64,000 nt of DNA from Nitrospinota bacterium (GTDB taxonomy: Bacteria > Nitrospinota > Nitrospinia > Nitrospinales > JACRGP01), in NCBI GenBank assembly GCA_016207065.1, contig JACQQK010000178.1:5740-69739 (forward strand), in the 5' to 3' direction. Of this stretch, positions 6,200 through 25,265 are shown piece by piece. Position numbers and translations under genes: made by a program. The notes beneath the pieces are model-generated. The model saw only the letters and a program-made list of their open reading frames with translations. It was not told the DNA's origin and searched no databases. Position 1 is the first letter of the stretch. Every line of letters begins with the position of its first letter.

Positions 6200-6637
6200 A
6201 TGAAATTTCTTTGCGTCCCCTGCGACGAACAGATGCAAACCCAAACCGACGGCATCATGCCGGCGGAAGCCAAGAATATATCCCTGAAGTTCAAATGCCC
6301 CAAGTGCAACCATACGATCGCCATGCTCACCAACCAGTTCGAGACGGAGTTCGTGAGCAAGATCGGCGTGGAACTGGGCGGTCAATCGGCGGTCGGCTCC
6401 GGCCCGTTGAGCATGGTCGGGTCGCAACTGGCCCAGGGCAAGGAAGAGTTGAAGCAGACCGTCATGAAGGACGAGGACTTCGAATGGACCGAGGAAGCCA
6501 AGGTCCGCATCGGCCGGGTCCCCTTCTTCGTCCGGAACATGGCGAAAAAAACCGTGATCGGCTTCGCGCGCGAACGGGGCATCAAGGTGATCGACGCGAA
6601 ACTGATGGACGAGGTGCGCGAAAAGGTGGGGATGTGA
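6200..6637 (+). CDS. Zinc-ribbon protein with C-terminal PCP-reductase-like domain
   Basis: N-terminal 'CVPCDEQ...CPKCNH' (4-Cys ribbon). The C-terminal 'WTEEAKVRIGRVPFFVRNMAKKTVIGFARERGIKVIDAKLMDEV' resembles the PCP_red domain pattern (recollection). Sits 4 nt after the Mrp-like gene. Confidence 0.55.
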   Translation: MKFLCVPCDEQMQTQTDGIMPAEAKNISLKFKCPKCNHTIAMLTNQFETEFVSKIGVELGGQSAVGSGPLSMVGSQLAQGKEELKQTVMKDEDFEWTEEAKVRIGRVPFFVRNMAKKTVIGFARERGIKVIDAKLMDEVREKVGM

Positions 6638-6752: not shown

Positions 6753-9700
6753 TTACTCCGCTTCCGAAATTATTTTCAATCCTTCAATCCAAACTTTCAT
6801 CTCTTTCCCCGCAATCTCCCCTTCCTTCAATTCCTTTTCCTGATGGGCAATATATGTATTGCGAAATTCGTTGATCCTCTCCACCAAGGCCAAAATATCT
6901 CTTCCCCCTTTGACTTGGAATCTTTTTCTTACGGCTTCAAAGACACCTCCGATTTTGGTTTTGTCGTTTAGGGCAAAATCCAAACAGGAGCGCAAAAGCC
7001 CAATGGGAGAAACCCCATTTTTAAAAACCAACGTCCGTTTGAGATTTTGCGCCAAGCCTTGGTAATACTTTTGCATCTTGAAGTCAACTTTGCCGTAGTA
7101 GGGTTCAAACCAGTCCTTTTGCGCTGGAATGTTTGTTGGCATTTCCGGGGAAAGACGGCGGTCTACCAAGCCGCGCGTGGCTTCATCCAATGAACCGAAA
7201 AGAGCGGTAAAGACGGGAGCAAAGTTCATTTCCTTGTTTTCGAAGAATTTAAACAAAGTTATCGCTTCTTCCGACGCTTTTTTGTACCGGGAGGGCAACG
7301 CCTTCAACATATCCGGGTCGATAAAATCCCCGGTTGCCGGGGCCTCTTCTTCCCAAACGATGGTCATTTGAGGGCCCTCGGTCTCTTTCAGCAAATCCTG
7401 CAAGGCCGGATTGCACGAGCGGGTCAACTCAGAAAGTTCCGCTCCCGTCAACCGCTCAAAAACGCCTTGTTGGACGTAAACATATTCCCATTGAATTTCC
7501 CCGGTCGAGGCGGAGCGGCACCAGGCGACAGCGGCGCGGGCTTTTAAAGGGACATCTCTATCCTCCCGGCCCTTGGTTTCTATCAAGTAGTAATTTCCAT
7601 CCTTATTCCGTGCAAAGAAATCCGGCGTATAGAAGGCCAGTCTTTTCCCATCTGTCAGATAGTCGATTCGGAGACATTGGGGGCCTTGATTTTTCGCGAA
7701 TGCTTTAATGTCGGGGGCGCGATCCAGAAACTGGGTCATCGCTACTTCCAATTCCCGGTTGCATGGAACAAGATTGAAAAGGGTCCTTGTCGCCCCAAGG
7801 GCCGGTCTTCGTTCATTGTGCGTGGCTGGATAGGGTTTCCAGTTGGCTAAAGATAGGCTGATTTTTTCCTTTTTCCTCGGCCCGGTTTTTATGGTCCGTT
7901 CGCGGATGAGCGGAACGAAAGTGGCGCGCACATGCTCGTGGACGTCCGAATCGGAAAGACGGGCAACCAAGTGGGGATCGTCTAAAGTGGTTCTCCGTTC
8001 AAAAAGAATTTCCTCCAGAAAAGTCTGTATCAAAGGCGCCAGCGTTTGGTGCGTTCCCCGGAGTTTGCAAACATGCTCCAACTCGGTCACGAAATAAGAC
8101 ACCGCCCCAAACCCGGATTCCAGGAGCGGCAAACGGATTCTCATTTTCTCGACGATCTCTCCGGTAAACAAGGCCCTGCCTTCGTATTCGATTTCAGTAT
8201 TCCCTTTCGCGCCCAACGGCAACGGTTTGAAACGCTTGAAAGCCTTCTTGACATCCTCCAAGGTCAAACCTTCCAGTTTTGGGACGGGCCTGTGCTCCGG
8301 CGTCAGGATGGGTATTTGAATGTCCAGCTTCTTTAAGTCTTTCTTGGGGTCGGGAAATATGGAAACCGTGGTCGAGGGAATTTTGTCGATGTCGATGATT
8401 TCCACTGGCAACCCCTCATGGGCCAGTTCCTGCTGATACAAACTGGAAAAGGCGGGATGCTCCACCACCGTCACCAGTTCATGCGCCTGGCCCGAAGGCG
8501 TCATGCGCCGCAATCCCCGCCCCAGGGTTTGCTCCGGTAAAATATTGGCCTTGGAACTGTACGGGCGAAGAGGAACGATGGTGGTGACATTCCGGACGTC
8601 CCAGCCTTCCCGCAACATCAATACGGAAACAATACAACGATGCGGACTGACGTTGGAATCGAGTTCCCGGCTTAACTTTCTAAGGGCCTTTAAATCCTCG
8701 TCGCTAATTTCTTTTTCGTCTTCGACAAATACCTGGCTTTTGCTTTGTCCCCGGCCAACGGTTTTGACTTTTCCTTTCAGGTTGGTGTGCAGATTGATGG
8801 TCTTTCCGTTCAATTCCTTAAATGCCTCGTCCGTATTCAGTCTTTGGGAAATTTCGTCCGCCGCCTGGGTGTCGTCGCACATCACAAAGAGCAGGGCCTT
8901 CTTGCCGCTTTTTTCCCATTCCTCCCGGCTGGCTTTCCAGCGCTCGTACCCGATCCGCAAATGTTGCTCGTATTTGTAGGCGGCGTTTGGGTCGGAGCGA
9001 TCAACCAGTTTGCCGCTCTTCCCGATCACGGGGGTCTTGACGATGCCGCCGTCCACCGCCTCTCCCAAAGGGGAGTCGCAAACGACATGTTTGAAAACGT
9101 TCCCGCAGTTGTCCTTTGGCGTGGCGCTGAAATCGAGTTGGGCGACCAAGCCGCCGCCGGTCCTTTTGCGGACGGCATCGTGCAAATACTTGATGGCCTC
9201 GTTCCAGGCGGAATCGGGATCCCAAACGTGGTGGGCCTCGTCGTTCAACACCATCAATTTTCGATGTCCGGTGATCCTGTCCCTCAAGGACGCGCCCGTG
9301 TCCAAAGCCTTGGCCTTGGAAACCGGCGGTCCCATCCAGGGGTAGGACTCGGCCTCTTTCTTTTCCTTGCGCTTGTTGGGATTGTACAGTCTATGGATAT
9401 TGGTCAAATAGAGGACTCCGCCCGTTGCCGCTCCTCCGGCCTCGTCCTGCAACACGACCGACAGATTCCAGTCGCCGCGCCATTCCGTCGGGACCAAGGG
9501 ATCCTCGTCGAAAATCTTTCCATTTCCGAAATCCTCCTTGAGCCGTTCGAATACGGTAAGGTTGGGGGCAATCATGACAAAATGCCGGGCCATCGGAGAG
9601 TCGGATTCGCGCAAGGAGTGAAAGTAGCTCCATACCACGGCGAGGCTCATCACCTTGGTTTTGCCGCTTCCCGTCGCCAACTTGAAAGCGTACCGGGTCC

Positions 9701-10139
9701 AGGCGTCTTCCTCCTCGGTTATGCCGAGGGCGAGGGTTTCCGCGTTGGCGCCGCCATAACCAGCGAAAATCTGGGACAGATATTCCAGCTTGCGGACCTC
9801 TTTCAAATAAATGAGCGTCTCAATGGCCTCGCGCTGGCAAAAGTAGTAGCGGAATTCGAATTCGTCTCCAGCGGGCGTTGTCCGGATGTGGCTCCGGCCA
9901 AACCAGTACTCCAAAAGATAACGGGTGGTGTCGCTGACCCCGAAATAGGAGGATTCCCGCCATTGCGAAACCTCCGCTCGCAAATTCTGAGCAATGACGA
10001 CGGGGGATTTCCGCCTGCCTTTAACAATTTTGGCGGGCGCACCCGGTTCTTCCGACCGTATGCGGTGGGCGTCCGGTTCCTCCCAGGATTTATACAACGG
10101 TTCCAACGCGCCGGGGTTGACGACGGGGCTGGCATTCAT
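6753..10139 (-). CDS. res: Type III restriction enzyme Res subunit (SF2 helicase + PD-(D/E)xK nuclease) with ~250-aa C-terminal extension
   Basis: '[11 protein letters not shown]' (Walker A), 'LNDEAHHVW' (DEAH) and a nuclease core '[23 protein letters not shown]'. The start at ATG 10139 (MNASP...) overlaps the mod stop as ATGA. The C-terminal extension ends in '[15 protein letters not shown]'. Confidence 0.85.
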
Positions 10140-12110
10140 ATCTTGATTTCCACCGTGATGCTGGTGTCGCACCCGAAAGTGTCCACCACCTTCACGCATG
10201 CCGTGTAAGTTCCCGGTTTTGGGAATGGGTGTTTTGCGTCAGAAATGGTTTTCAGATTCCGGTCCTTGCGGGTGCGGTAATGCTGCCAATGATGGTTGAA
10301 GGGCTTGCCCGGTTGCCATTCGAAATCCACCGCCCAGAAGTCGATGAAATCCATCCCGCTTTTGACGGCCCGCTCTTTGAGGGCAGAGAGCTCCTTGCTT
10401 GGAACTTCCGCTAAGGAAGGCAAAAATTTAGCGAGTTTGATTTCGGCGGTCCTGTCTTTTCCCTTTCCGGAATAAACGGGCGTGGCCTCCAATACGGCCA
10501 TTTCCAGAAAAGGCGGCGGGGAAGTCCTGTTCTTTTCCATGATCTCCCGCGGTATGGGGATCAATTTCATTTTGACGCCAAACTCCTTTTCCAGGGCTAC
10601 GGTGGTCAGGCGCAAATCCATTTCGAATTCCCAGGACAGACAATAAACTTCTTTTCCCCCGGCCTGGGCGACCGCTTCCGCGACCTCCCGCGCCTCCTCG
10701 CGGGTGAATATGGAGTCGATGCCGTCCACATGGCAAAAGGCCCCCGCCTTGCGCCCGTGGATAAGCGGGGACGGGGTTTTCGTCAAAACCTCGGCCTTGA
10801 AAAATTCCAGCACCACTCGGCGGTGCTCAGCGTCCGCCCCGTTGAGCCGGTCCTTTTGCCACCACTGCCGTTCGTAACGGCCCAGGTTGTAAACGTCGAA
10901 AGCCCGGTAGGATCTGCCTTCATCGTGGAGTTTACGTTGCAGGTCAATCAGCCGCTTGCGTGAGGTGTGGATAGCGAACCGCCCAAGATCGGACATGACC
11001 CAGCGTCTTCCCAGCCGTTCCGCCACGGCGCCGGTTGTCCCGCTACCGCAAAAGAAATCGGCGACCAAGTCGCCTTCGTTGGAAGAGGCTTTGATGATGC
11101 GTTCAAGGAGAGCTTCTGGCTTTTGGGTCGTGTATCCTACGTTTTCCAATACAGAAAAAGCATATGTTCCAACAGGATGATCATTAAAAATTTCAGCCAA
11201 ATCTGGTTTCCCCATCCACACGCTCCAAGCCGTTTGGGGACGTTCCAAACTTGCCAATTTAATGGCATCCTCTTTTGTTAAAGAGGAATCATTACATATA
11301 TATGTTTTTAAACAATTTGTTCCACCGCTTGTTTCTTTCCCGCGCGTATAAAACCAGCCATTTTTATCTTTTTGCAAGGCATTTGTGATTCTTGGGGAAT
11401 ATCCTAATCGGGGGGGGGGTAAATAGACTATTCTTGGACTTATAGCAAAGGATTGTTTCGTGAGATTTTGGGTAAAACTTTCCGCTACCCATCAGTCCGC
11501 AAACCCAAATAATTTCTGCAAAATCATGGTTTGGAAATATCTCGTTCAAAATAATCCGTAATTGAGAGGATTTCCGCCAATCGCAATGCACGTAGATACT
11601 TCCCGTTTCAGCGAGCAATTCTCGCATCAGCGCGAGCCGTTCATACATCATATGCAGGTAAGAGTCGGTTCCTTTTCCCCACATGTCCTGGTACGCCACC
11701 ATTTCGAGTGTGGACTGATCTTTTTCAACGGTTTCCTTGCCGTCGCCGATGGGGATATCCATTGTAAAATCCGCACCGACATCGAATGGGGGATCGATGT
11801 AGATCAAGTCGATTTTGCCCCTGAACTCCTTTAGCAGGGAGGCCATTACAAGTTTGTTGTCGCCCCAGATCAGCCGGTTGCGGAAATTGTCCGCATGGGC
11901 ATCCTTCGGATTGAACAGTTGTCCTTGAGCTTCCTTGCGACTTCGCGGCTCGTCGATGGTCTCGATTTTCTGCATGGGCAGAGCAGACCCGGCGATATCA
12001 ACTTCCCGGCGGTTGCCATAGCAGTCGTATTTCCCCTCCCAGACCAGTTCGGTTTTTAGAACGGACAACGGGTGGGGGTTGTCCGGGCCATGGACGGGTT
12101 TGGAGGTCAT
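10136..12110 (-). pseudogene. mod: Type III DNA methyltransferase Mod, split into two ORFs at a homopolymer tract
   Basis: The N-terminal ORF (11364-12110) has 'IDLIYIDPPF' (motif IV). The C-terminal ORF (10136-11377) has '[18 protein letters not shown]' (motif I). With 9 or 12 C on the coding strand instead of 10, the frames join as '...[28 protein letters not shown]...'. Confidence 0.85.
11410..11419. repeat. G10 (coding-strand C10) homopolymer inside mod
   Basis: Counted directly: atcctaatc-GGGGGGGGGG-taaatag. This is the site of the mod frame break. Confidence 0.95.
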
Positions 12111-12173: not shown

Positions 12174-12353
12174 GTCTATATTGTCAATGGTTTCCAGAAG
12201 GAATACACGGGAGGCGATAAGGAGCGGGAAATTTATTTCCGCGCCGACAAGGCGCTGGACTACGGTTTCGTGGTGGACGTGTTCGCGGCCATCCGCAACG
12301 CGGGCATCCTGAACATCGGCATGGTCACGGATCCCGCCGGACGCGCCGGATAA
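12174..12353 (+). pseudogene. ExbD/TolR-family 3' remnant (no N-terminal TM segment); start approximate
   Basis: '...EREIYFRADKALDYGFVVDVFAAIRNAGILNIGMVTDP' matches the ExbD/TolR C-terminal pattern. It begins immediately right of the mod start with no membrane-anchor region. Confidence 0.55.
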
Positions 12354-12419
12354 AACCTCACGCGGCGGTTTTCTTTTTGCATTGCGGACACTCGCAGAGG
12401 TTCCGCAGGTATTCGTGGG
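12255..12419. repeat. 165-bp direct repeat, copy 1 (ExbD tail + intergenic + 3' end of DUF971 gene)
   Basis: Identical to 13188-13352 except 12388 (a) versus 13321 (g), which is synonymous in the DUF971 frame. Confidence 0.9.
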
Positions 12420-12427
12420 CGTCCAGC

Positions 12428-12490
12428 CGGGGAATCAGGGCGATCAACGCGAAACTGATGGACGAGGCGCGGGAAAAGACGGGGATGTAA
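12428..12490 (+). pseudogene. Diverged copy of the 3' end of the PCP_red-domain gene
   Basis: Encodes 'RGIRAINAKLMDEAREKTGM*' against 'RGIKVIDAKLMDEVREKVGM*' at 6575-6637. About 9 mismatches in 63 nt by eye alignment. Confidence 0.7.
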
Positions 12491-12552: not shown

Positions 12553-12813
12553 TCAATAGACGTGGCGGCGATGTTTCACCGTCAGGACAAAAACCGTTTT
12601 ACTCCCTTCCTCGATCTCGTAAACAATGCGCCAGTCGCCAACGCGCAACGAAAACTCTCCCGCATGATTTCCGACAAGAGGCTTTCCGGAGCGGGGGAAA
12701 TCGGCCAGCAATTCGATTTTTCGCAAGACCCTCCCAAACAAGCGACGGTCGGCCTGGGCCAGAGTTTTCTAATCGCCTTCCGCCTCGCGCGAAAGACGAA
12801 CGGCGTAACTCAC
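12553..12813 (-). pseudogene. RelE/ParE-family toxin with in-frame TAG at codon 15
   Basis: GTG 12813 overlaps the antitoxin stop (GTGA). Reads 'VSYAVRLSREAEGD*KTLAQADRRLFGRVLRKIELLADFPRSGKPL...LRVGDWRIVYEIEE...VFVLTVKHRRHVY', with TAG at 12769-12771. Confidence 0.7.
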
Positions 12814-13080
12814 CGGGGAGACGCTTTCTTTTTGAAATCCTCAAGCGATACCGTTTGGCCGCGCCGGACTTGTTTTTTGGCGCGGGCAATGGCGCGCGTT
12901 TCCTCCCGATGAGTTTGGATATCGAGGGTCTCGATCCAACCCTCGTATTCCTCCGCGCTCATAAGGACGGCCTTTTCCTCGCCGTTGCGCGTGATCACGA
13001 ACCGGTCGTATCCCTCCTCGACCTCCTTGACCAGGCGCGAAAGGCTTTTTTTGGCCTCGGACAACGGGCAGGTTCTACAT
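12810..13080 (-). CDS. Phd/YefM-family antitoxin (start uncertain)
   Basis: 'SEAKKSLSRLVKEVEEGYDRFVITRNGEEKAVLMSAEEYEGWIETLDI'. The SD 'aaggagg' precedes ATG 13080, but that ATG is out of frame by 1 nt (ATG-TAG). The ORF track begins at TTG 13064. Confidence 0.7.
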
Positions 13081-13106
13081 GGATGACCTCCTTCTCATTA
13101 GTCTAA

Positions 13107-13187: not shown

Positions 13188-13352
13188 CTGGACTACGGTT
13201 TCGTGGTGGACGTGTTCGCGGCCATCCGCAACGCGGGCATCCTGAACATCGGCATGGTCACGGATCCCGCCGGACGCGCCGGATAAAACCTCACGCGGCG
13301 GTTTTCTTTTTGCATTGCGGGCACTCGCAGAGGTTCCGCAGGTATTCGTGGG
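13188..13352. repeat. 165-bp direct repeat, copy 2
   Basis: See copy 1 at 12255-12419. This copy continues into the intact DUF971 gene. Confidence 0.9.
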
Positions 13353-13638
13353 TATACAGCCCGGTATCGTGCCCGTCGTTCCATTGGATCTGGACCGCGT
13401 ACAACCCGACGGAATGCAGTTTGACGGGGCGGATGGTGTCCGGGATGGAGCCGGGCGCGATGCGCTTCTCGCCGGTCCACTCGTCCACGCAGTGGGCGCA
13501 GGGGCATTTCTCCCGCAGGGTCTTGACGGCGTACACGGACTCGTGCCCGTCGTTCCAAGCTATCCCTAGCGTGGTGGCGTCCACCTGCCGGATGTTTTTC
13601 GGGGAGGGGCTTCGTGAATTGTCTTGGGTTATTGCCAT
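13291..13638 (-). CDS. DUF971 (gamma-butyrobetaine-hydroxylase-N-terminal-like) protein
   Basis: Duplicated 'WNDGHES.Y / WNDGHDTGLY' motifs and 'LRNLCECPQC'. Confidence 0.7.
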   Translation of the reverse strand: MAITQDNSRSPSPKNIRQVDATTLGIAWNDGHESVYAVKTLREKCPCAHCVDEWTGEKRIAPGSIPDTIRPVKLHSVGLYAVQIQWNDGHDTGLYTHEYLRNLCECPQCKKKTAA

Positions 13639-18225: not shown

Positions 18226-20118
18226 ATGGGAACGTATCAAGCGAAAGATATTCAATTACTGGAAGGGCTGGAACCAGTCCGGCGGCGTCCGGGAATGTAC
18301 ATCGGCTCGACCTCCACAACGGGACTGCACCACCTCGTGTGGGAAATCCTCGACAACTCGGTGGACGAAGCCCTCAACGGCCACTGCGACACCATCGAGA
18401 TCGAGATCGAGGCGGACAACGCGATCGCGATCAAGGACAACGGGCGCGGAGTCCCGGTGGACGAGTTCCGCAACAGCGGGAAAAGCGCCATGGAAATCCT
18501 GTTCACCACCCTGCACTCCGGCGGGAAGTTTGGCGACGACAATTACAAAGTCTCCGGCGGCCTGCACGGCGTGGGCATGGCGGTGGTGTGCGCCCTGTCC
18601 GAAACGCTGGTGGCCACGTCGCGGCGCGACGGGTTCGAGTGGACCCAGACCTACTCGCGCGGCAAGGCCGTCGGCAAAATCAACAAGGGCAAGCCGTCGC
18701 GCCATTACGGCACCACCGTCTACTTTAAACCCGACTCGCAGATTTTTCCCAAGGTCGAGTTGAATGTCAAATGGATCCTCGAACAGGCCGAAGCCAAGGC
18801 CTTCCTGCACAAGGGGCTCAAGATCGTCGTCCGGGAACGCGGTAGCGAGCACGTGTTCCAATACCCCGGCGGCATCAAGGACTACCTGAAGAAGATCGCG
18901 GCCGGCAAGCAGGTCCTCATGGAGGAGCCGGTGTACGTCGAGAAGGACGACCAGCGCCTGAAGTTGGAAGCCGCCTTCCTGTGGACCGCCGGGACGGACA
19001 CCGTCATCCACTCCTACGCCAACGCCATCAAGACCGCGGACGGCGGGACGCACGAAAACGGGTTCCGCAACGGCGTCACGCGGGCCATCCGCGCCTATAT
19101 CGAGCGCCGGAACCTGCTCTCCAAGGGGATCCCCGGCGTCACCAGCGACGATGTCAAGGAAGGGCTCGTGGCCATCGTCAGCGTCTACCTGTCGGGCGAG
19201 GTGGAATTCCAGGGGCAGACCAAGGGACGGCTGAACTCGGACATCACGTCGCAGGTGGAGTCGGTCGTCAAGCACTCGCTGGAGAACTTCCTGCACGAGC
19301 GCCAGACCGTCGGCGACCTCGTCGCCAACCGCGTGATCCTGTCGGCGCAGGCGCGCATCGCGTCACGGCAGGCGAAGGAGGCGGTGCACCGCAAGACCAA
19401 CATATCGCACCGGTTGAACCTGCCCGGCAAGCTGTCCGACTGCGCCTCGACCGACCGGGAGGAATCCGAGCTGTTCATCTGCGAAGGCGACTCTGCCGGA
19501 GGGTCCAGCAAGCAGGCCCGCGACCGCAAAACCCAGGCCATCCTGCCCATCCGCGGCAAAATCCTGAACGTCGAGACCGCGACCATGGACAAGATCCTGG
19601 CCAATACCGAGATCCAGAACATCATCTCCGCCACCGGGACCGGCATCCATCCCAAGTTCGACCATGACAAACTGCGGTACGGCAAGATCATCATCATGAC
19701 CGACGCCGACGTGGACGGCGCGCACATCTGCGCCCTGCTCCTGACGTTCTTCTACCGCTACATGCCGGAGCTCATCGAGAAGGGGAATTTATACATCGCC
19801 CAGCCGCCGCTCTACCGGATCGACTCCGGCAAGAACTGCTACTACGCCATCGACGACAAGGAAAAAGACTCCATACTGCAAAAACTGGACAACGCCAAAT
19901 ACGACATCGGCCGGTTCAAGGGACTGGGAGAGATGCCGCCGTCCGACCTCAAGGAGACCACCATGGACAAACGCTCGCGCTCGTTGATCCGCGTGGAAGT
20001 CGCCAGCCGGGAAAACGCCGACAAGACATTCGACCACCTCATGGGCAAGGACGCGCAAGCCCGCTTCCGCTTCATCCGCGAACGCGCCCCCCTCTTCCAG
20101 GAAGCGCTGGACGTGTAG
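18226..20118 (+). CDS. Type IIA topoisomerase subunit B (GyrB/ParE family)
   Basis: 'GLEPVRRRPGMYIGST', 'HHLVWEILDNSVDEA', 'LHGVG', 'ELFICEGDSAGGS' and 'IIIMTDADVDGAHI' (Toprim). 630 aa, stop TAG. Confidence 0.9.
   Translation: MGTYQAKDIQLLEGLEPVRRRPGMYIGSTSTTGLHHLVWEILDNSVDEALNGHCDTIEIEIEADNAIAIKDNGRGVPVDEFRNSGKSAMEILFTTLHSGGKFGDDNYKVSGGLHGVGMAVVCALSETLVATSRRDGFEWTQTYSRGKAVGKINKGKPSRHYGTTVYFKPDSQIFPKVELNVKWILEQAEAKAFLHKGLKIVVRERGSEHVFQYPGGIKDYLKKIAAGKQVLMEEPVYVEKDDQRLKLEAAFLWTAGTDTVIHSYANAIKTADGGTHENGFRNGVTRAIRAYIERRNLLSKGIPGVTSDDVKEGLVAIVSVYLSGEVEFQGQTKGRLNSDITSQVESVVKHSLENFLHERQTVGDLVANRVILSAQARIASRQAKEAVHRKTNISHRLNLPGKLSDCASTDREESELFICEGDSAGGSSKQARDRKTQAILPIRGKILNVETATMDKILANTEIQNIISATGTGIHPKFDHDKLRYGKIIIMTDADVDGAHICALLLTFFYRYMPELIEKGNLYIAQPPLYRIDSGKNCYYAIDDKEKDSILQKLDNAKYDIGRFKGLGEMPPSDLKETTMDKRSRSLIRVEVASRENADKTFDHLMGKDAQARFRFIRERAPLFQEALDV
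20076..20117. repeat. 42-bp direct repeat, copy 1 (3' end of the topoisomerase B gene)
   Basis: ccgcgaacgcgcccccctcttccaggaagcgctggacgtgta is identical at 20846-20887. The next base differs, giving TAG here and TAA there. Confidence 0.95.
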
Positions 20119-20157
20119 CCGTAGTAATGCGCCCTTAAACTTTACGAAACTGAGTTT

Positions 20158-20478
20158 ATGACCTTTAACGAAACGATCGATCTTGCCGTCCGGCGCATTG
20201 TAGAGGTTGCTCGTCCGGCGAAGGTCATCCTGTTTGGCTCCCGCGCGCGGGGCGACGAGGACAAAGGCTCCGATCTGGATTTAATGGTCATCGAAAACAG
20301 GGAACCCGATACCTACGAAGAAACGATCCGCCTTCGCAAGGCGGTAGGAAGCGTTGGCGTGGGCGTGGATATTCTGGTCTATTCGCAGGCCGAGTTCGAG
20401 CGGCGTAGCCAGGTGCCCGGAACGGTTCTTTACTGGGCAAGGAAGGAAGGCAAGGTCTTGTATGAAGCCGAACGTTGA
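20158..20478 (+). CDS. Minimal nucleotidyltransferase (MNT) domain protein, HEPN-MNT toxin-antitoxin-type
   Basis: 'ILFGSRARGDEDKGSDLDLMVI' (GSxxRG...DxD). Confidence 0.8.
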   Translation: MTFNETIDLAVRRIVEVARPAKVILFGSRARGDEDKGSDLDLMVIENREPDTYEETIRLRKAVGSVGVGVDILVYSQAEFERRSQVPGTVLYWARKEGKVLYEAER

Positions 20479-20844
20479 GGAGGCGCTACGGTCCTTACGC
20501 CTGGCAGACCGGGACATCAAGGCTTTCGACATCTTGATGAATTCCCCGGAAGCGCATTCGTCGGTGGTGTGTTTTCATGCCCAGCAAGCTGTCGAGAAGT
20601 CTTTAAAGGCCGTTTTATACCTGAACCTCATCGAATTCGAACGCACGCACGACCTCGTAAAACTCGCGGAACTGCTCCGGAATAACGGCTTCAGCCGCCG
20701 GTTTCGGACGATGAGTTCCACAAGCTTGCCCCCTTTGCCGTGACCTTCCGCTACGACGACAAGGAAACAGAGTCCCTGACAGGAGAAGAGGCCGGGCAGA
20801 TAATGATGGCCATCCGCCGTTGGGCGGGAAAGTTGCTTGAATGA
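20462..20844 (+). pseudogene. HEPN domain protein (partner of MNT), frameshifted near 20694-20697
   Basis: 'CFHAQQAVEKSLKAVL...ERTHDLVKLAELL' in one frame, and 'DDEFHKLAPFAVTFRYDDKE...AIRRWAGKLLE*' in the next. One added C (agccgccgg becoming agcccgccgg) joins them. The start overlaps the MNT 3' end. Confidence 0.7.
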
Positions 20845-20845
20845 C

Positions 20846-20887
20846 CCGCGAACGCGCCCCCCTCTTCCAGGAAGCGCTGGACGTGTA
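20846..20887. repeat. 42-bp direct repeat, copy 2
   Basis: Starts 2 nt after the HEPN stop (20842-20844). See 20076-20117. Confidence 0.95.
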
Positions 20888-20899
20888 AGAGGTCTGAAA

Positions 20900-21379
20900 A
20901 TGCTCCCGGAGCAAACGCCGATAACCGGTCGGGAAGACATAAAGGGCGCGCCCCCTCCCCTTCGGGCCCTGATCGAATTTTACGACGCCTTCAACAACAG
21001 GGACATGGCCAAGATGTCGAACAATTGGGCCCGGACCGCTGAAATCTCGATGGACAATCCTGTGGGCGGAATCAAGCGGGGGTGGGAAGAAATCGGGGCC
21101 GTTTACGAACTGATCTTCAATGGCCCCGCCCGCGTCTATGTCGAATTTTACGATTATACCCTGCACGAGACGGACCGGATGTTTTACGCGGTGGGAAGAG
21201 AGCGGGGACGTTTTTCCATAGGCGAAACCGCCATCGATCTGGCCATTCGCACCACCCGGATTTACAAATTAATCGACGGACATTGGCGGCAAGTCCATCA
21301 CCATGGCTCGATCGACGATCCGGAGGCGCTGGCGCGTTATCAGTCGGCTGTCAGTAAGAGGACGCGGCCAAGCGTATAA
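20900..21379 (+). CDS. SnoaL/NTF2-like (DUF4440-like) small protein
   Basis: 'LIEFYDAFNNRDMAKMSNNW...YVEFYDYTLHETDRMFYAVGRERG...LIDGHWRQVHHHGS' fits the NTF2-fold pattern. The likely start is ATG 20900 rather than the ORF-track 20837, which lies in the repeat. Confidence 0.55.
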   Translation: MLPEQTPITGREDIKGAPPPLRALIEFYDAFNNRDMAKMSNNWARTAEISMDNPVGGIKRGWEEIGAVYELIFNGPARVYVEFYDYTLHETDRMFYAVGRERGRFSIGETAIDLAIRTTRIYKLIDGHWRQVHHHGSIDDPEALARYQSAVSKRTRPSV

Positions 21380-21387
21380 AAAGGAAC

Positions 21388-21693
21388 TTGGGTATGGCGG
21401 ATGATTGGAAGATCAAACGGGTCGCCTTCACCCGGCATGCACTGAACCAGATATTTACCCGCTCCATCGGAATCGACGATGTCAAGGCGGTCATTTCCAG
21501 CCATGAAATCCTCGCGGAATATCCGGATGATTTTCCCTACCCCAGCCGCTTGCTACTCGGTTTTGTAAAAGGAAGACCGTTGCATGTGGTATTAGGCTAT
21601 AATTCGAAAGAATCAGCCGCTTATGTGGTCACGGTTTACGAACCCAACCCGGTTCTCTGGGAACCCGGTTTTCGCAGGAGGAGAAAAACATGA
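21388..21693 (+). CDS. DUF4258-family putative toxin
   Basis: 'FTRHALNQIFTRSIGIDDVKAVISSHEILAEYPDD...RPLHVVLGYN...VVTVYEPNP' fits the DUF4258 pattern (recollection). Overlaps the next gene by 4 nt (ATGA). Confidence 0.6.
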   Translation: MGMADDWKIKRVAFTRHALNQIFTRSIGIDDVKAVISSHEILAEYPDDFPYPSRLLLGFVKGRPLHVVLGYNSKESAAYVVTVYEPNPVLWEPGFRRRRKT

Positions 21694-21914
21694 TGTGCCT
21701 TTTTTGCCATCACGGCGAAACCCATGAAGGCGAGGTCACTGTTACCCTCGAACGAAAGACCAGCGCGGTCATCGTACGCGGCGTGCCCGCCGACGTGTGC
21801 GAGAATTGCGGCGAATATTACCTCAGCGAGGAAGTCTCGCGAAAAATTCTGGATCTGGCCGAAACCGCCGTCCAGCGCGGCGTCGAGGTGGAAATCCTGC
21901 GTTATGCCGCGTGA
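21690..21914 (+). CDS. YgiT-type zinc-finger (MqsA N-terminal-like) putative antitoxin
   Basis: 'CLFCHHGETHEGEVTVTLERKTSAVIVRGVPADVCENCGEYYLSEEV', with two CxxC pairs. Confidence 0.65.
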   Translation: MMCLFCHHGETHEGEVTVTLERKTSAVIVRGVPADVCENCGEYYLSEEVSRKILDLAETAVQRGVEVEILRYAA

Positions 21915-22226
21915 AATCCCAAAGCTCGACAAATCCGCCCAAGCCAATCTGATGTAGCCGGAGATACGCCGCGTCGTCAAGATCAAGAAACCGACCGTGC
22001 GGGCGACCTACGAACTCCAGGAAATCGGCCTCCCCGACCTCGAGACCGTCCTGAAAGCGTTCGTGGCATGACTCGACTTTCTCCAAGAGAGAGGATGCGG
22101 TCAAGCCTATGAAAAAGAGAGATTCGAACTCTGAAGAACATCGTATAATACTCTTCGTCCGCATGGTCCACAGGAAAATTTGACGCCAAAAGAATTAGCA
22201 GAAAATCGGTCAAAGGAGCGCCAGGT

Positions 22227-23375
22227 ATGCATAAAGTGAAGAAGATCAAAATCGAGGGATTCAGACGGTTGCATGACATCGAGATCGAAATGCGACCGTT
22301 GATGGTCATGATCGGCGCCAACGGCGTGGGCAAAACATCTTTTTTGGACGCCATGTCCCTCCTTTCCGCTTCCGCAGAGGGGACGATGAACCGCAAATTG
22401 AACGATATGGGCGGCATCGCTGAGGTTCTCACCCGCGGGCGCGCGGGCAATCTCGCCTTGGAAACCGAAATCATGGAGAAATCCAGCAAACAACCTCTCA
22501 AATACAGTCTCCATATCGAACCCAAGGGTGTAACGTATAATATTTCACCGGAGGTTTTATCCCAAGAAAGAGGGCGTCAGAGACCTTTCAAATACATCGA
22601 ATCGAATTCCGATAATATCTTCTATTTTAGTCCCGAAAAAAACAAACTCGTCCGGCCTACATGGGAGCACAACCCGTTCGAGTCGACGCTGTCCCAAGTC
22701 TCTAACATGTTCCCGGAAGCCGAGGAATTGCGGCGGGTCCTCAGTTCCGTCACACAGTATCATGTGCTCGACGTGAGCCAGCGCGCTCCGGTAAAACTCC
22801 CCCAACAGATGAAACCCGCCGATCTGCCCGGCGAGAACGGCGAGGATATGGTCCCGTTCCTTTACTCCCTTCGGGAAAAAGACCCTGATCGGTACGAAGC
22901 AATAGAGGATACTCTGAAATCGGCATTCCCAGGCTTTGAATCCCTCAACTTTCCACCGGTGGCGGCTGGCATGCTGTCCATGACCTGGAAAGAAAAAAAC
23001 TTCAAGAACCCGATTTACATAAACCAGCTTTCCGAGGGAACTCTCCGCTTTCTTTGGTTGATCTCTCTGTTACAGAGCCCGGCGCTTTCCCCCGTGACCA
23101 TGATCGACGAACCCGAAGTCAGCCTGCATCCTGAAATGCTGAGCTTCCTCGCCGATCTGATGCGGGAAACCTCCGAAAGAACCCAAATCATCGTCGCCAC
23201 TCATTCCGACAGGCTTGTCCGCTTTCTTGACCCCAAGGAAGTGGTCGTCATGGATATCGGCGATGACGGCTTTGCGTCGGCAAAGTGGGCCGATTCGCTG
23301 GATTTGGAACAATGGTTCAAAGAGTATACCCTCGACGAGGCTTGGCGAATGGGGCGCATGGGAGGACGGTCGTGA
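22227..23375 (+). CDS. ABC/SMC-like AAA ATPase (AAA_15/AAA_21-type)
   Basis: 'IGANGVGKTSFLDA' (Walker A), 'LSEGTLRFLWL' (signature-like), 'TMIDEPEVSLHP' (Walker B) and 'IVATHS' (H-loop). SD aaggag upstream. Confidence 0.8.
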   Translation: MHKVKKIKIEGFRRLHDIEIEMRPLMVMIGANGVGKTSFLDAMSLLSASAEGTMNRKLNDMGGIAEVLTRGRAGNLALETEIMEKSSKQPLKYSLHIEPKGVTYNISPEVLSQERGRQRPFKYIESNSDNIFYFSPEKNKLVRPTWEHNPFESTLSQVSNMFPEAEELRRVLSSVTQYHVLDVSQRAPVKLPQQMKPADLPGENGEDMVPFLYSLREKDPDRYEAIEDTLKSAFPGFESLNFPPVAAGMLSMTWKEKNFKNPIYINQLSEGTLRFLWLISLLQSPALSPVTMIDEPEVSLHPEMLSFLADLMRETSERTQIIVATHSDRLVRFLDPKEVVVMDIGDDGFASAKWADSLDLEQWFKEYTLDEAWRMGRMGGRS

Positions 23376-23989
23376 AAATAGCCTTGATTGTCGAAGGCAA
23401 GACCGAGAAAGCCTTCATGCCGCATCTCCGCAAGTACCTGGAAAGGCATCTCGCTGGTTGCATGCCTTCTCTTGATCCCCTTCCATACGGTGGCCGCATT
23501 CCTACCGGGGACCAATTAAAGCGTATTGTCAGTAATCTCTTGGAGAATGGAAGAAATCCGGCGGATCATGTGATCGCATTGACGGATGTTTATACAGGTC
23601 CCCAATCGCCCGATTTTAAAGACGCGCAAGATGCAAAGACTAAAATGCGCCAGTGGGTCGGCAATGAACCGAGGTTCCATCCCTATGCCGCTCAACATGA
23701 GTTCGAGGCATGGCTTTTACCTTATTGGTCTTGCATCCAAAAATTAGCGGGCCGTAACAAAGCGGCCCCAAGCAGTACCCCTGAAACCGTAAACCACCAC
23801 AATCCGCCCTCGCGCCGTATCAAAGAAATTTTTCGTATCGGCCAACATCGCAACCACTATATTAAGCCGCGCGACGCCGACCGGATCTTGCGGGACAACG
23901 ATCTCGGAGTCGCCGTTTCCCAATGTCCGGAATTGAAGGCGCTTATCAATACGATTTTATCCGTGTGCGGATCAAAGACGATTCCATGA
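23372..23989 (+). CDS. DUF4276-like protein (Toprim/OLD-nuclease-like N-terminus), partner of the ATPase
   Basis: GTG 23372 overlaps the ATPase stop (GTGA). Carries the 'KIALIVEGKTEKAF' EGxxE motif and 'VIALTDVY'. The family assignment is from memory, not a search. Confidence 0.55.
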   Translation: MKIALIVEGKTEKAFMPHLRKYLERHLAGCMPSLDPLPYGGRIPTGDQLKRIVSNLLENGRNPADHVIALTDVYTGPQSPDFKDAQDAKTKMRQWVGNEPRFHPYAAQHEFEAWLLPYWSCIQKLAGRNKAAPSSTPETVNHHNPPSRRIKEIFRIGQHRNHYIKPRDADRILRDNDLGVAVSQCPELKALINTILSVCGSKTIP

Positions 23990-24035: not shown

Positions 24036-25010
24036 ATGCAACCCAAAAACTCCCCGGCCAAGCCCAGTCTGCTGATCGCCTTCGGCGGCAACGCGTTGGA
24101 GACGCCGGAGAGTTCCAACCGGCAACGGGACGAGTTTTTCGCCGCGCGGCGGAGCATACGGGAAGTGGCCGGCCTGATCAAGAACGGGTACGGGAAAATC
24201 GTCCTCACCCACGGCAACGGCCCGCAGGTGGGCCGGATCTTCCTGCAACAGGAACTCACCAAGAACGAATTCCCGCGCCAGGTCACGCTCGACGTGTGCG
24301 TGGCCGACAGCCAGGGCCGGATCGGCTACATCCTGCAAAACGTGTTCGACAGCGTGTGCGCCGAGCTGGGCGTCAACAAGAAATGCTACGCGGTGATCAC
24401 GCAGGCGGTGGTGGACCCCGGCGACCCGGCCTTCCAGAACCCCGATAAACCGATCGGCGTGTTCTATTCCGCCGAGGACGCGGAACGCCTCGCCCGGGAA
24501 CGCGGCTGGGTATTGCGCGAGGACGCGGGGCGCGGATACCGCCGCATGGTCCCCTCCCCTAAGCCGCTGGAGATCGTCGAGAAGAACCTTTTCCAGAACC
24601 TGCTGGACCAGGGGTTCATCGTCATCGGCGCGGGCGGCGGCGGCATCCCGGTCTTCCGGGACGCGTCGGGGGGCTTGTCGCACGGCGTGGAGGCGGTCAT
24701 CGACAAGGACCGCGCCAGCGCTCTTCTGGCCGGCGAAATCGGCATCGACTGTTTTGTCATGCTGACGGCGGTCGATTACGCCTACCTCGATTACAACTCG
24801 CCCCGGCAATCGCCGATCAAATCCGCCACGGCGGAGGAAATGGAAACCTACATGGAGTTGGGACATTTCCTGGAGGGGAGCATGAAACCCAAGGTGGAGT
24901 CGGCGATCCAGTTCGTCCGGAGCGGAGGCAAAAGGGCGATCATCGCCAACTTGAACGACCTGTTACCAGCCCTGGAAGGAAAAACCGGCACGCAAATCGT
25001 CCCCGATTGA
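24036..25010 (+). CDS. arcC: Carbamate kinase
   Basis: 'LLIAFGGNAL', 'LTHGNGPQVG' and 'GGGGIPV' motifs. 324 aa. Confidence 0.85.
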   Translation: MQPKNSPAKPSLLIAFGGNALETPESSNRQRDEFFAARRSIREVAGLIKNGYGKIVLTHGNGPQVGRIFLQQELTKNEFPRQVTLDVCVADSQGRIGYILQNVFDSVCAELGVNKKCYAVITQAVVDPGDPAFQNPDKPIGVFYSAEDAERLARERGWVLREDAGRGYRRMVPSPKPLEIVEKNLFQNLLDQGFIVIGAGGGGIPVFRDASGGLSHGVEAVIDKDRASALLAGEIGIDCFVMLTAVDYAYLDYNSPRQSPIKSATAEEMETYMELGHFLEGSMKPKVESAIQFVRSGGKRAIIANLNDLLPALEGKTGTQIVPD

Positions 25011-25137: not shown

Positions 25138-25265
25138 CGTCATCGCGAGCCGTCGCAGACGGGCGTGGCGATCCAGGTTTCTGGAGCGCAAAGCCTCCCG
25201 CTTTGCGCGCTACGCGGGGACGCGTAGCGCTCCATATGGATTGCTTCGCTCCGCTCGCAATGACG
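25138..25265. repeat. MITE-like nested-hairpin intergenic element
   Basis: Terminal inverted repeats cgtcatcgcgagc (25138-25150) and gctcgcaatgacg (25253-25265), 12 of 13 matching. Inner hairpins are gcgcaaagc/gctttgcgc (25186-25208) and gctacgcg/cgcgtagc (25209-25228). Translates to the junk-ORF strings 'VIASRRR' and 'DCFAPLAMT'. Confidence 0.6.

What the first reader, a model, noticed from the sequence alone, without database searches (positions are those of the whole stretch)
20076..20887. MNT-HEPN cassette bracketed by an exact 42-bp duplication of the topoisomerase B gene's 3' end
The last 42 nt of the topoisomerase B coding sequence (20076-20117) recur exactly at 20846-20887, beginning 2 nt after the HEPN stop. 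The copies differ only at the next base, giving stop TAG in the first and TAA in the second. Only the 728-bp MNT-HEPN module lies between them. The SnoaL-like gene follows the second copy as if it were the original neighbour. A 42-bp flank is far longer than a transposase target-site duplication. It is what Campbell-type integration of a circular cassette carrying a short homology patch would leave, and recombination between the copies could excise the cassette.
Basis: partly seen in the sequence, partly recalled or inferred. Interest (0 to 1): 0.6.

Follow-up and report, generated by a model that had tools for sequence, protein, structure and literature searches.

The report
Old insertion scar duplicating parE's tail
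A small toxin-antitoxin gene pair sits just after an essential topoisomerase gene, flanked by two copies of that gene's last 42 bases; the duplication is real, but it is an old, inherited and now decaying recombination scar of a kind already described for restriction-modification genes, not an active mobile cassette.

Summary
The last 42 nt of the topoisomerase IV B gene (20076-20117, stop TAG) recur exactly at 20846-20887 (stop TAA). The copies bracket a 728-nt MNT-HEPN module, and SnoaL follows copy 2. Chance expectation is 2e-16. Both junctions recur in independent assemblies of related Nitrospinota strains.

Single-crossover (Campbell-type) integration through the parE tail is the best mechanistic fit. 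However, the structure is old and fixed. It is shared by at least three lineages that differ by 3-10% in DNA. Copy 2 decays as non-coding DNA in two of them. No empty site, excision product or circle was found.

HEPN is independently damaged in three of four lineages; the window has a 1-nt deletion at 20689/20690. Homologous cassettes in three unrelated genomic contexts have no flanking repeats.

The same window holds two more scars of this kind: 177 nt around a Phd/ParE pair, and 61 nt around a type III R-M system. A relative has a fourth. This matches "insertion with long target duplication", described for R-M genes, here with toxin-antitoxin cargo at hotspots that accumulate defence genes. 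Interest is moderate to low.

The parts
18226..20118 (+). Topoisomerase IV subunit B (parE), essential gene whose 3' end is duplicated
   Evidence: Pfam HATPase_c, DNA_gyraseB, Toprim and DNA_gyraseB_C. It follows ParC (15610-17907). 72-79% aa identical to Nitrospinaceae orthologues.
20076..20117 (+). Tail copy 1: functional last 42 nt of parE (stop TAG completed at 20118)
   Evidence: Identical in L074 and L075; one substitution in L079.
20119..20157 (+). 39-nt spacer upstream of MNT, the left end of the inserted DNA
   Evidence: Present in L074 and L075 with a few changes. Replaced in L079 by about 900 nt carrying a REP-like element and a second MNT/HepT cassette.
20158..20478 (+). MNT (minimal nucleotidyltransferase) antitoxin gene, 106 aa
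   Evidence: PF01909 E=2.9e-12 and PF18765. 94% and 90% aa identical to P0001 and P0002 from related strains.
20464..20844 (+). HEPN toxin gene, overlapping MNT by 15 nt; pseudogene in the window (1-nt deletion between 20689 and 20690)
   Evidence: The reading frame is split. The repaired protein hits PF05168 at E=4.9e-19. L078 has an intact 127-aa gene with the extra G.
20846..20887 (+). Tail copy 2: displaced, non-coding relic of the parE tail (TAA completed at 20888)
   Evidence: 41/42 in L078 and 38/42 in L079, always directly after the HEPN stop.
20900..21379 (+). SnoaL-like (NTF2 family) gene, the inferred original downstream neighbour of parE; its last codons were replaced by a 190-nt deletion relative to L078
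   Evidence: PF13474. Identical to NCBI MBI4384980.1. Alignment with L078.
21394..21914 (+). Second toxin-antitoxin cassette (DUF4258 toxin-like plus MqsA/YgiT-type zinc-finger antitoxin)
   Evidence: Pfam. Absent between SnoaL and carbamate kinase in L074. In L078 it is bracketed by a 64-nt (89%) direct repeat, extending at lower identity to about 100-115 nt by eye.
21970..22071 (+). 'Y tail' copy b: 3' fragment of an unidentified ORF; its diverged partner (copy a) lies upstream of DUF4258 in L078 and has been deleted in the window
   Evidence: No Pfam hit.
22227..23989 (+). AAA_21 ATPase plus DUF4276: HEC-01 candidate defence system, a further module in the same slot
   Evidence: Pfam. PADLOC HEC-01A E=8e-72 and HEC-01B E=1.5e-17. 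Absent in L074.
24036..25010 (+). Carbamate-kinase-like gene, the right-hand backbone of the slot
   Evidence: PF00696. Its start follows the SnoaL remnant by about 240 nt in L074.
6575..6637 (+). 3' end of gene X (PCP_red-domain protein, 6200-6637): functional copy of a second duplicated gene tail
6753..12110 (-). Type III restriction-modification island (res 6753-10199; mod split into 10136-11377 and 11364-12110), lying between the two gene X tail copies
   Evidence: Pfam ResIII and N6_N4_Mtase in two pieces. PADLOC REase_III. Absent from all relatives, where gene X and the DUF971 gene are convergent neighbours 160-450 nt apart.
12255..12431 (+). Copy 1 of the 177-nt repeat (ExbD-fragment tail plus 3' end of the convergent DUF971/GBBH-like_N gene); solid identity runs to 12419
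12428..12490 (+). Relic copy of the gene X tail (87% identical; stop kept as TAA) abutting the 177-nt repeat
   Evidence: It carries substitutions at residues that are invariant in 20 orthologues, so it is decaying.
12553..13064 (-). Phd/YefM antitoxin (12810-13064) plus ParE-family toxin (12553-12813) with an in-frame TAG at codon 15
   Evidence: Pfam PF02604 and PF05016.
13188..13364 (+). Copy 2 of the 177-nt repeat, continuous with the intact DUF971/GBBH-like_N gene (13291-13638, minus strand)

Best explanation
The 42-nt repeat is the scar of an old additive insertion at the 3' end of the essential parE gene.

Inferred event. DNA carrying an MNT-HEPN toxin-antitoxin operon, preceded by a parE tail from a close relative, was joined into a chromosome whose parE was followed directly by SnoaL. 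The join needed one homologous exchange inside the parE tail and one illegitimate end-join just past the HEPN stop. The simplest route is a linear fragment trimmed by nucleases, closed into a circle, and integrated by a single RecA-type crossover (Campbell-type).

Consequences. The incoming tail (TAG) now completes parE. The resident tail (TAA) was pushed downstream and survives as non-coding DNA in front of SnoaL.

The cassette has no mobility machinery of its own. The same process, or a close variant, recurred at this slot and at a second slot in the window. These slots pile up toxin-antitoxin, restriction-modification and defence modules, each leaving a duplicated gene tail.

The scar has since been inherited vertically. 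Copy 2 decays and the toxin genes are being inactivated.

Shown: the anatomy, the age, the recurrence, and the absence of mobility genes. Inferred: the recombination route and the circular intermediate.
For: 1. Exact repeat whose right edge is the parE stop codon, with both copies followed by different sequence.
2. Both junctions are present in independent assemblies.
3. The insert contains only MNT and HEPN (Pfam). There are no inverted repeats at its ends. The slot has no integrase or transposase in the window, L074, L078 or L079.
4. GC is 0.50-0.57 across 20.1-24.0 kb, against 0.60-0.65 in parC, parE and the carbamate kinase gene.
5. The structure is shared by the window, L078 and L079. HEPN-region identity is 97% (window vs L078) and 91% (window vs L079). 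parE is 94.9% identical between the window and L079. Copy 2 carries 0, 1 and 4 substitutions respectively.
6. It recurs: 177-nt and 61-nt duplications around a Phd/ParE pair and a type III R-M system in the window, and a 64-nt duplication around DUF4258-MqsA in L078. Relatives have the empty arrangement, gene X facing the DUF971 gene.
7. Literature. Insertions of R-M genes with direct repeats longer than 30 bp and no mobility genes, some overlapping a gene's 3' end, form a described class (PMC2853133). In E. coli, 56 of 60 selected events were duplications of the homologous anchor, made by a single crossover of a re-circularised trimmed fragment. Canonical homology-facilitated illegitimate recombination (HFIR) gives insertion plus deletion (PMC3240628).
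Against: - No empty site (parE-TAA-SnoaL) and no donor arrangement (parE-TAG-MNT-HEPN followed by something other than the tail) was found, so insertion polarity rests on anatomy alone.
- No circle or excision junction was seen.
- 42 bp is a short substrate for RecA-dependent exchange (my own knowledge: about 25-30 bp is the minimum in E. coli).
- The original duplication and insert may have been larger and later trimmed by deletion. In that case the present HEPN/copy 2 junction is a deletion scar, not the original joint.
- At the second locus the two relics differ very unequally from their partners (9 changes over the last 23 codons, 8 of them in the 61-nt repeat, versus 1 of 165). A single event explains this only with gene conversion, or if one relic was already old.
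Confidence: 0.6

Rival explanations
1. Homology-facilitated illegitimate recombination, or unequal exchange between two alternative versions of the parE-downstream slot. In this reading a linear fragment from a strain with parE-MNT-HEPN recombined homologously within parE, and its far end joined illegitimately to the recipient 42 nt before the recipient's parE stop. The two versions were stacked without any circular intermediate.
For: - Microhomology-mediated illegitimate events are active in this clade: a 9-nt GGAGGCGCT deletion in L074/L075 and a 190-nt deletion in the window.
- The layout of the second locus (gene X, its tail, R-M, 177-nt repeat, then gene X tail relic, toxin-antitoxin pair, 177-nt repeat, DUF971 gene) can be written as a single join at 12420-12428 between two versions of the slot.
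- HFIR has been proposed for analogous stacking of T6SS effector-immunity modules and Rhs tips (PMC5361080).
- Copy 2 probably differed from copy 1 at one synonymous site originally, which hints at two alleles.
Against: - Canonical HFIR yields insertion coupled with deletion of recipient DNA, not duplication of the anchor.
- In the one experiment read here, duplications came from single crossovers of re-circularised DNA and were about ten times more frequent than true HFIR (PMC3240628).
- Neither parental version was found.
Confidence: 0.2
2. Relic of a larger integrase-mediated island or prophage that used the parE 3' end as its attachment site and carried a replacement tail, in the manner of e14 or phage 21 in the E. 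coli icd gene. Later deletions removed everything except the addictive toxin-antitoxin pair.
For: - Duplicated gene 3' ends are the classic att scars of such elements (my own knowledge; tRNA and gene-end att repeats longer than 30 bp are discussed in PMC2853133).
- Deletions are frequent in this slot.
- Toxin-antitoxin pairs resist loss.
- A deletion running into copy 2 would explain why only one base separates the HEPN stop from the repeat.
Against: - No integrase, excisionase or phage gene lies in the slot in any of four lineages.
- No viral contig carries the parE tail or a relative of the cassette.
- Four separate duplications of four different sequences in this clade would each need their own vanished integrase.
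- The repeats share no common core.
Confidence: 0.12
3. True in-situ target duplication: a staggered double-strand break, with nicks 42 nt apart, was filled in after capture of a foreign fragment.
For: - The copies are identical in the window.
- 'Long target duplication' is the descriptive name of the class, and its authors suspected double-strand breakage (PMC2853133).
Against: - Repeat lengths vary widely (42, 61, 64, 177 nt), so no fixed stagger exists.
- No nuclease with such a property is known or encoded in the insert.
- The repeat ends exactly at the stop codon, which homology between two parE alleles explains and a random stagger does not.
- L078 and the outgroup L079 share a difference from copy 1 at position 13.
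Confidence: 0.06
4. Assembly artefact: a strain mixture was collapsed at a shared 42-mer.
For: The window comes from a short-read metagenome-assembled genome. Logan contigs break inside the repeat.
Against: - 42 nt is shorter than a sequencing read.
- L075 and L079 read through copy 1 into the cassette.
- L078 and L079 read from HEPN through copy 2.
- L079 holds both copies on one 5.8-kb contig from a different assembly.
Confidence: 0.02

Closest known systems
Insertion with long target duplication (Nobusato et al. 2000, Gene 259:99; Furuta, Abe & Kobayashi 2010, NAR, PMC2853133)
   Same: - A small gene module with addictive properties, inserted without any mobility gene.
- Flanked by a direct repeat longer than 30 bp of unique host sequence. 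The repeat length varies from case to case and sometimes overlaps the 3' end of a gene.
- One of the window's own cases has a type III R-M system as cargo, a type listed in that study.
   Different: - The cargo at the parE site is a toxin-antitoxin pair, not R-M.
- No empty-site sister genome was found for the parE site.
- The scar here is old and degenerate, and several are nested or stacked at hotspots.
- The mechanism of the published class is itself unresolved.
Campbell-type single-crossover integration of a circular or re-circularised DNA (insertion-duplication; Amarir-Bouhram et al. 2011, PMC3240628)
   Same: - The product is insert flanked by two copies of the homology patch.
- One copy is continuous with upstream DNA and the other with downstream DNA.
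- The essential gene stays intact.
   Different: - The homology here is only 42 bp, against 109-950 bp in the experiment.
- The circular intermediate is hypothetical.
- This is a natural, ancient event, not a plasmid construct.
Displacement arrays of polymorphic toxin loci: Rhs C-terminal displacement, and T6SS effector-immunity arrays (Kirchberger et al. 2017, PMC5361080)
   Same: - Successive incoming modules recombine through a conserved upstream gene.
- The previous module is pushed downstream and leaves relic 3' fragments.
- Retention of the old protective gene is favoured.
   Different: - Here the conserved anchor is a housekeeping gene unrelated to the cargo.
- The displaced piece is a 42-nt tail with no function.
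- The modules are unrelated to each other.
Integrase-mediated elements that target a gene's 3' end and carry a replacement copy (e14 or phage 21 in icd; tRNA-gene islands)
   Same: A duplicated gene tail flanks foreign DNA, and the host gene is kept functional.
   Different: There is no integrase, no phage or conjugative genes, and no common core among the four repeats. The insert is 728 nt.

Membership tests
Insertion with long target duplication (Furuta et al. 2010 criteria) | Direct repeat longer than 30 bp flanking the insert | tested here: met
   42/42 nt at the parE site; 177 nt (97%) and 61 nt (87%) at the second locus.
Insertion with long target duplication (Furuta et al. 2010 criteria) | Insert shorter than 20 kb with no mobility-related gene | tested here: met
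   The 728-nt insert encodes only MNT and HEPN. There are no terminal inverted repeats. L079, L078 and L074 have no integrase or transposase in the slot.
Insertion with long target duplication (Furuta et al. 2010 criteria) | A related genome has the empty site with the repeated sequence present once | tested here: inconclusive
   parE site: no empty site within the clade, and more distant Nitrospinaceae have one tail but a non-syntenic downstream region. Second locus: relatives have gene X and the DUF971 gene adjacent, each tail once.
Insertion with long target duplication (Furuta et al. 2010 criteria) | Cargo includes both R and M genes | tested here: not met
   The parE-site cargo is a toxin-antitoxin pair. 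It is met only for the gene X tail duplication, which encloses a ResIII gene plus a split N6_N4_Mtase gene.
Campbell-type single-crossover integration | Insert flanked by two copies of the homology patch, with the outer flanks continuous with the chromosome | tested here: met
   Copy 1 completes parE; copy 2 precedes the SnoaL ribosome-binding site.
Campbell-type single-crossover integration | A circular form, or precise excision leaving an empty site, can be detected | not testable with these tools
   No read data were available. No contig with a circle junction or an empty site appeared among the contigs retrieved.
Integrase-mediated island at a gene 3' end | A tyrosine or serine recombinase gene next to one att copy | tested here: not met
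   The Pfam domains of every ORF between parE and the carbamate kinase gene, and of the genes called on L079, L078 and L074, include no recombinase.
Integrase-mediated island at a gene 3' end | An element with the same att sequence exists as a phage or plasmid | tested here: not met
   No exact match of the 26-nt tail, and no relative of the cassette, in 2.9 million viral contigs. Plasmids were not searched.
Transposon or insertion sequence | Terminal inverted repeats, a transposase, and a short (2-14 bp) target duplication | tested here: not met
   No inverted repeat at the cassette ends, no transposase, and a 42-nt duplication.
Integron gene cassette | An attC recombination site (imperfect palindrome with GTTRRRY core) at the cassette boundary and an intI gene upstream | tested here: not met
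   The 55 nt between HEPN and SnoaL are the parE tail and contain no GTT core (read directly). No intI lies between parC and the carbamate kinase gene. The rest of the window was not screened.
MNT-HEPN toxin-antitoxin module | An NTP_transf_2 antitoxin gene followed by an overlapping HEPN-domain toxin gene | tested here: met
   PF01909 E=2.9e-12 and PF05168 E=4.9e-19, with a 15-nt overlap.
MNT-HEPN toxin-antitoxin module | Intact toxin reading frame | tested here: not met
   1-nt deletion at 20689/20690 relative to the intact L078 gene.

The most novel reading that the evidence does not exclude
Addictive modules (toxin-antitoxin pairs and restriction-modification systems) sitting at an allelic hotspot may make ordinary allelic replacement lethal, through post-segregational killing. 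Only rare additive recombinants would then survive. This would drive modules to stack behind conserved genes and would leave duplicated gene tails as a diagnostic scar. It would be a general, machinery-free route by which defence islands grow. It would also extend 'insertion with long target duplication' from R-M systems to toxin-antitoxin systems.
Probability: 0.2. Interest if true: 0.55.

Novelty: new member of a known kind. Interest (0 to 1): 0.35.

Why it matters
How small toxin-antitoxin and defence modules with no mobility genes of their own get into chromosomes is poorly documented. This locus gives a clean, independently confirmed example. One 64-kb window holds three such scars around different cargo, and related strains show later stages: decay of the relic tail, independent inactivation of the toxin, microhomology deletions, and further accretion. 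It indicates that the rearrangement class described for restriction-modification genes also applies to toxin-antitoxin cassettes, and that the scars can persist across 5-10% sequence divergence. It does not reveal a new mobile element or a new enzyme.

Tried and rejected
1. Looked for an empty site or a donor arrangement.
- Exact-protein look-ups for ParE, MNT, Phd and the DUF971 protein of the window found nothing.
- A JGI metagenome scan for the 24-nt tail found nothing.
- A ParE C-terminus search gave one close contig, L079, which is occupied.

2. Asked whether the repeats belong to the cassette family. Homologues (about 64-69% aa) in three unrelated contexts (L080, L090/L096, L100) have no flanking repeats. 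Rejected.

3. Considered a prophage or attP origin. No viral contig has the tail or the cassette.

4. Considered a transposon and an integron. There are no terminal inverted repeats, transposase, attC core or intI in the slot.

5. Tested the idea that the gene X tail relic came from a functional diverged allele. Rejected, because it has changes at residues invariant in 20 orthologues, so it is simply decaying.

6. I first favoured HFIR over the Campbell route. I reversed this after reading that canonical HFIR gives deletions, while duplications arise from single crossovers of re-circularised DNA.

7. Scanned 1.2 Mb of relatives' loci for similar short-range repeats. Apart from L078, which is of the same clade, I found none of this kind among the cases examined. 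L028's 41- and 51-nt repeats look like REP-type intergenic elements. A few other short hits (L001, L032 and three non-Nitrospinota loci) were not inspected.

8. The original HFIR papers (PMC122324, PMC122325) are not held in the library.
Full report
**Observation**

The window has an exact 42-nt direct repeat at 20076-20117 and 20846-20887.

- Copy 1 is the end of a 630-aa GyrB-type ORF (18226-20118). This ORF follows a ParC-type ORF, so it is topoisomerase IV subunit B (Pfam).
- The base after copy 1 is G (stop TAG). The base after copy 2 is A (stop TAA).
- The 728 nt between the copies hold a 39-nt spacer, an MNT gene (20158-20478, PF01909) and an overlapping HEPN gene (20464-20844).
- One base separates the HEPN stop from copy 2.
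- A SnoaL-like gene starts at 20900, and its AAGAGG ribosome-binding site overlaps the TAA.
- By chance, an exact 42-mer pair is expected 2e-16 times in this window.
- HEPN is not intact. Its frame breaks between 20689 and 20690. The repaired protein matches PF05168 at E=4.9e-19.

**Origin of the sequence and independent confirmation**

ParE places the window in the Nitrospinota, with 72-79% amino-acid identity to Nitrospinaceae MAGs. The source is an NCBI MAG with a 99-kb contig; its proteins are MBI4384977, MBI4384978 and MBI4384980.

Four other assemblies of close relatives cover parts of the locus.

| Contig(s) | Source | What it shows |
|---|---|---|
| L074, L075 | Logan, two sequencing runs | parE tail-TAG, the same spacer, and MNT at 92% nt identity. 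This confirms the left junction. |
| L078 | Logan, another run | Intact 127-aa HEPN, then TGA-C, copy 2 (41/42), TAA and SnoaL. This confirms the right junction and shows the window has lost one G in HEPN. |
| L079 | NCBI GCA_016206985.1; parE 94.9% nt identical | Both copies on one 5.8-kb contig. |
| L076, L077 | Logan, same strain as the window | Both contigs start inside copy 2, which I read as a k-mer graph breaking at a real repeat. |

An assembly artefact is therefore excluded.

**Age and fate of the structure**

In the HEPN region the window and L078 are 97.2% identical. L079 is the outgroup at 91%. All three have HEPN followed by one base and then copy 2 with TAA, so the junction predates their split.

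Copy 2 behaves as non-coding DNA. It has one substitution in L078 and four in L079. Copy 1 has none in L074 and L075, and one in L079.

L078 and L079 share G at repeat position 13, a synonymous site of the Ala codon. The ancestral copy 2 was therefore probably 41/42. The perfect identity in the window is probably secondary, through gene conversion or a back-mutation.

No sampled lineage has lost the cassette by recombination between the two copies. Instead, L074 and L075 lost HEPN, copy 2 and most of SnoaL through a deletion between two GGAGGCGCT 9-mers.

HEPN is damaged in three different ways:
- a 1-nt deletion at codon 76 in the window;
- a 1-nt deletion near codon 12 in L079;
- complete deletion in L074 and L075.

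Only L078 keeps HEPN intact. This is the usual degeneration of a fixed chromosomal toxin-antitoxin pair (PMC2654758).

**The slot is an accretion hotspot**

Upstream synteny is conserved across Nitrospinaceae: the Mrp-like gene, gene X, the DUF971 gene, a second Mrp-like gene, parC and parE. Nothing downstream of parE is conserved. GC drops from 0.60-0.65 in the core genes to 0.50-0.57 across 20.1-24.0 kb.

In the window, the slot between parE and the carbamate-kinase gene holds, in order:
- MNT-HEPN;
- SnoaL;
- a DUF4258/MqsA-type pair;
- an AAA_21/DUF4276 pair, which PADLOC calls HEC-01, a candidate defence system.

The relatives differ:
- L074 goes from the SnoaL remnant to the carbamate-kinase gene in about 240 nt. 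That gene is then interrupted after 88 nt by sequence encoding a BrnT-like N-terminus.
- L079 has an extra MNT/HepT pair between the parE stop and MNT-HEPN. It has lost most of SnoaL to a REP-like element.

**More scars of the same kind**

A 177-nt direct repeat (12255-12431 and 13188-13364) has one mismatch in its first 165 nt. It brackets a Phd/YefM antitoxin gene and a ParE-family toxin gene that carries an in-frame TAG. The repeat consists of the end of an ExbD gene fragment plus the 3' end of the convergent DUF971/GBBH-like_N gene.

Directly after copy 1 of that repeat lies a 61-nt copy (87%) of the 3' end of gene X (6200-6637). Between the two gene X tails sits a type III R-M system whose methylase gene is split. 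In at least seven relatives, gene X and the DUF971 gene are convergent neighbours 160-450 nt apart, which is the empty arrangement.

The gene X relic has changes at residues that are invariant in 20 orthologues, so it is decaying.

In L078 the DUF4258-MqsA pair is bracketed by a 64-nt repeat (89%) of an unidentified ORF tail. By eye the similarity extends at lower identity to about 100-115 nt. The window has lost the upstream copy through a 190-nt deletion that also rewrote the last codons of SnoaL.

A scan of 1.2 Mb of relatives' loci found no other scar of this kind among the cases I examined. L028's short repeats look like REP-type intergenic elements. A few further short hits were not inspected.

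**What it is not**

- Not a transposon. There are no terminal inverted repeats, no transposase, and the duplication is 42 nt.
- Not an integron cassette. The 55 nt between HEPN and SnoaL are the parE tail and have no attC core. No intI lies in the slot.
- No sign of an integrase island or prophage. No lineage has a recombinase in the slot. No viral contig carries the tail or the cassette. This rival cannot be fully excluded, because deletions could have trimmed a larger element down to the addictive pair.
- Not an intrinsic property of the cassette. Homologous MNT-HEPN operons in three unrelated contexts have no flanking repeats.

**Mechanism**

The product is an insert flanked by two copies of a homology patch that ends exactly at the stop codon. 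Each copy is continuous with a different flank. Producing this needs one homologous exchange in the parE tail and one illegitimate join just past HEPN.

Two orders of events give the same product:
- circularise the fragment first, then integrate by a single crossover (Campbell-type);
- recombine homologously at one end, then join the other end illegitimately to the chromosome (HFIR).

The literature read here favours the first order for a duplication outcome. Canonical HFIR yields insertion plus deletion. In an E. coli experiment, 56 of 60 events were duplications of 109-950 bp of the anchor, produced by single crossovers of trimmed, re-circularised DNA (PMC3240628).

The second order remains possible. 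Microhomology-mediated events are evidently common in this clade. The compound second locus can be written as a single join between two alternative versions of the slot. That reading, however, has to explain why one relic shows 9 changes over its last 23 codons and the other only 1 in 165.

The original duplication may have been longer than 42 nt and later shortened by a deletion that ran into copy 2.

**Comparison with known systems**

The closest described class is 'insertion with long target duplication'. It covers R-M genes of types I-IV inserted without mobility genes, flanked by unique direct repeats longer than 30 bp that sometimes overlap a gene's 3' end (PMC2853133). Its mechanism is unresolved.

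The window contains one case that fits this class in cargo, the type III R-M system. The parE case fits in anatomy, but its cargo is a toxin-antitoxin pair and no empty-site genome was found.

Stacking of modules behind a conserved gene with relic 3' fragments also parallels the Rhs and T6SS effector-immunity displacement arrays (PMC5361080).

My four literature searches found no paper that describes toxin-antitoxin cassettes with long duplications of neighbouring gene tails. That is a limited search, not proof of absence.

**Verdict**

- The suggestion of a currently excisable mobile cassette is not supported. This is an old, vertically inherited, degenerating scar at a hotspot.
- It is a new member of a known kind of rearrangement, of moderate to low interest on its own.
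- The more interesting, untested idea is that addictive modules enforce additive rather than replacement recombination, and so build such arrays.

Noticed in passing
window 20689-20690: HEPN toxin gene has a 1-nt deletion relative to the intact gene in L078 (GGCGTTCA becomes GGC-TTCA), which splits the reading frame. L079 has a different 1-nt deletion near codon 12, and L074/L075 have lost the gene. The toxin has therefore been inactivated independently three times.
   Followed up: yes
window 12255-12431 and 13188-13364: A 177-nt direct repeat (one mismatch in its first 165 nt) brackets a Phd/YefM plus ParE-toxin cassette. The repeat is an ExbD-fragment tail plus the 3' end of the convergent DUF971/GBBH-like_N gene. 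The toxin has an in-frame TAG at codon 15 (12769-12771).
   Followed up: yes
window 6575-6635 and 12428-12488: The 3' end of gene X (PCP_red-domain protein) recurs at 87% identity 5.8 kb downstream. A type III R-M system lies between the copies and its methylase gene is split into two ORFs (10136-11377 and 11364-12110). The relic copy abuts the end of the 177-nt repeat with a few ambiguous bases (12420-12428).
   Followed up: yes
L078 1040-1103 and 1772-1835; window 21970-22071: In strain L078 the DUF4258-MqsA cassette is bracketed by a diverged direct repeat of the tail of an unidentified ORF (ends ...SYPGPTSSR* in one copy and ...LKAFVA* in the other). The window lacks the upstream copy because of a 190-nt deletion that also replaced the last codons of SnoaL (21354 onward).
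   Followed up: partly
L074 393-401 = window 20480-20488 and 21322-21330: Strains L074 and L075 lost HEPN, tail copy 2 and most of SnoaL through a deletion between two copies of the 9-mer GGAGGCGCT. MNT in L075 also has 6-nt and 4-nt deletions.
   Followed up: yes
L074 751-947: In L074 the carbamate-kinase gene matches the window for only its first 88 nt. It is then replaced by sequence encoding a BrnT-toxin-like N-terminus (MNWDEAKRLGNLAKHGVDF, PF04365 E=5e-6). This looks like another toxin-antitoxin insertion into a gene of the same slot.
   Followed up: partly
L079 739-1639: A second, unrelated MNT/HepT-type cassette (102 and 101 aa) plus a REP-like element sits between the parE stop and the MNT-HEPN cassette. 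It replaces the 39-nt spacer seen in the window. No new duplication accompanies it.
   Followed up: partly
window 21380-22000 versus L078 1190-1835: The DUF4258-MqsA segment is about 99.5% identical between the window and L078. The adjacent SnoaL gene is about 92% identical in DNA (90% aa) and the HEPN region is 97%. This mosaic suggests recent homologous exchange of this cassette between strains.
   Followed up: no
window 25237-25264 (minus strand) and L079 2404-2431: A 28-nt exact match (TTGTCATTGCGAGCGGAGCGAAGCAATC) belongs to a REP-like palindromic element. It is present in the intergenic DNA after the carbamate-kinase gene in the window. In L079 it lies where SnoaL should be.
   Followed up: no
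window 22227-23989: The AAA_21 ATPase plus DUF4276 pair matches the PADLOC candidate defence system HEC-01 (A: E=8e-72; B: E=1.5e-17). It is absent from the corresponding interval of L074.
   Followed up: partly
L028 12504-12554 / 13046-13096 and 5443-5483 / 5968-6008: A more distant Nitrospinales genome has 51-nt and 41-nt direct repeats about 530 nt apart around small ORFs. They appear to be intergenic REP-type repeats, not gene tails.
   Followed up: partly
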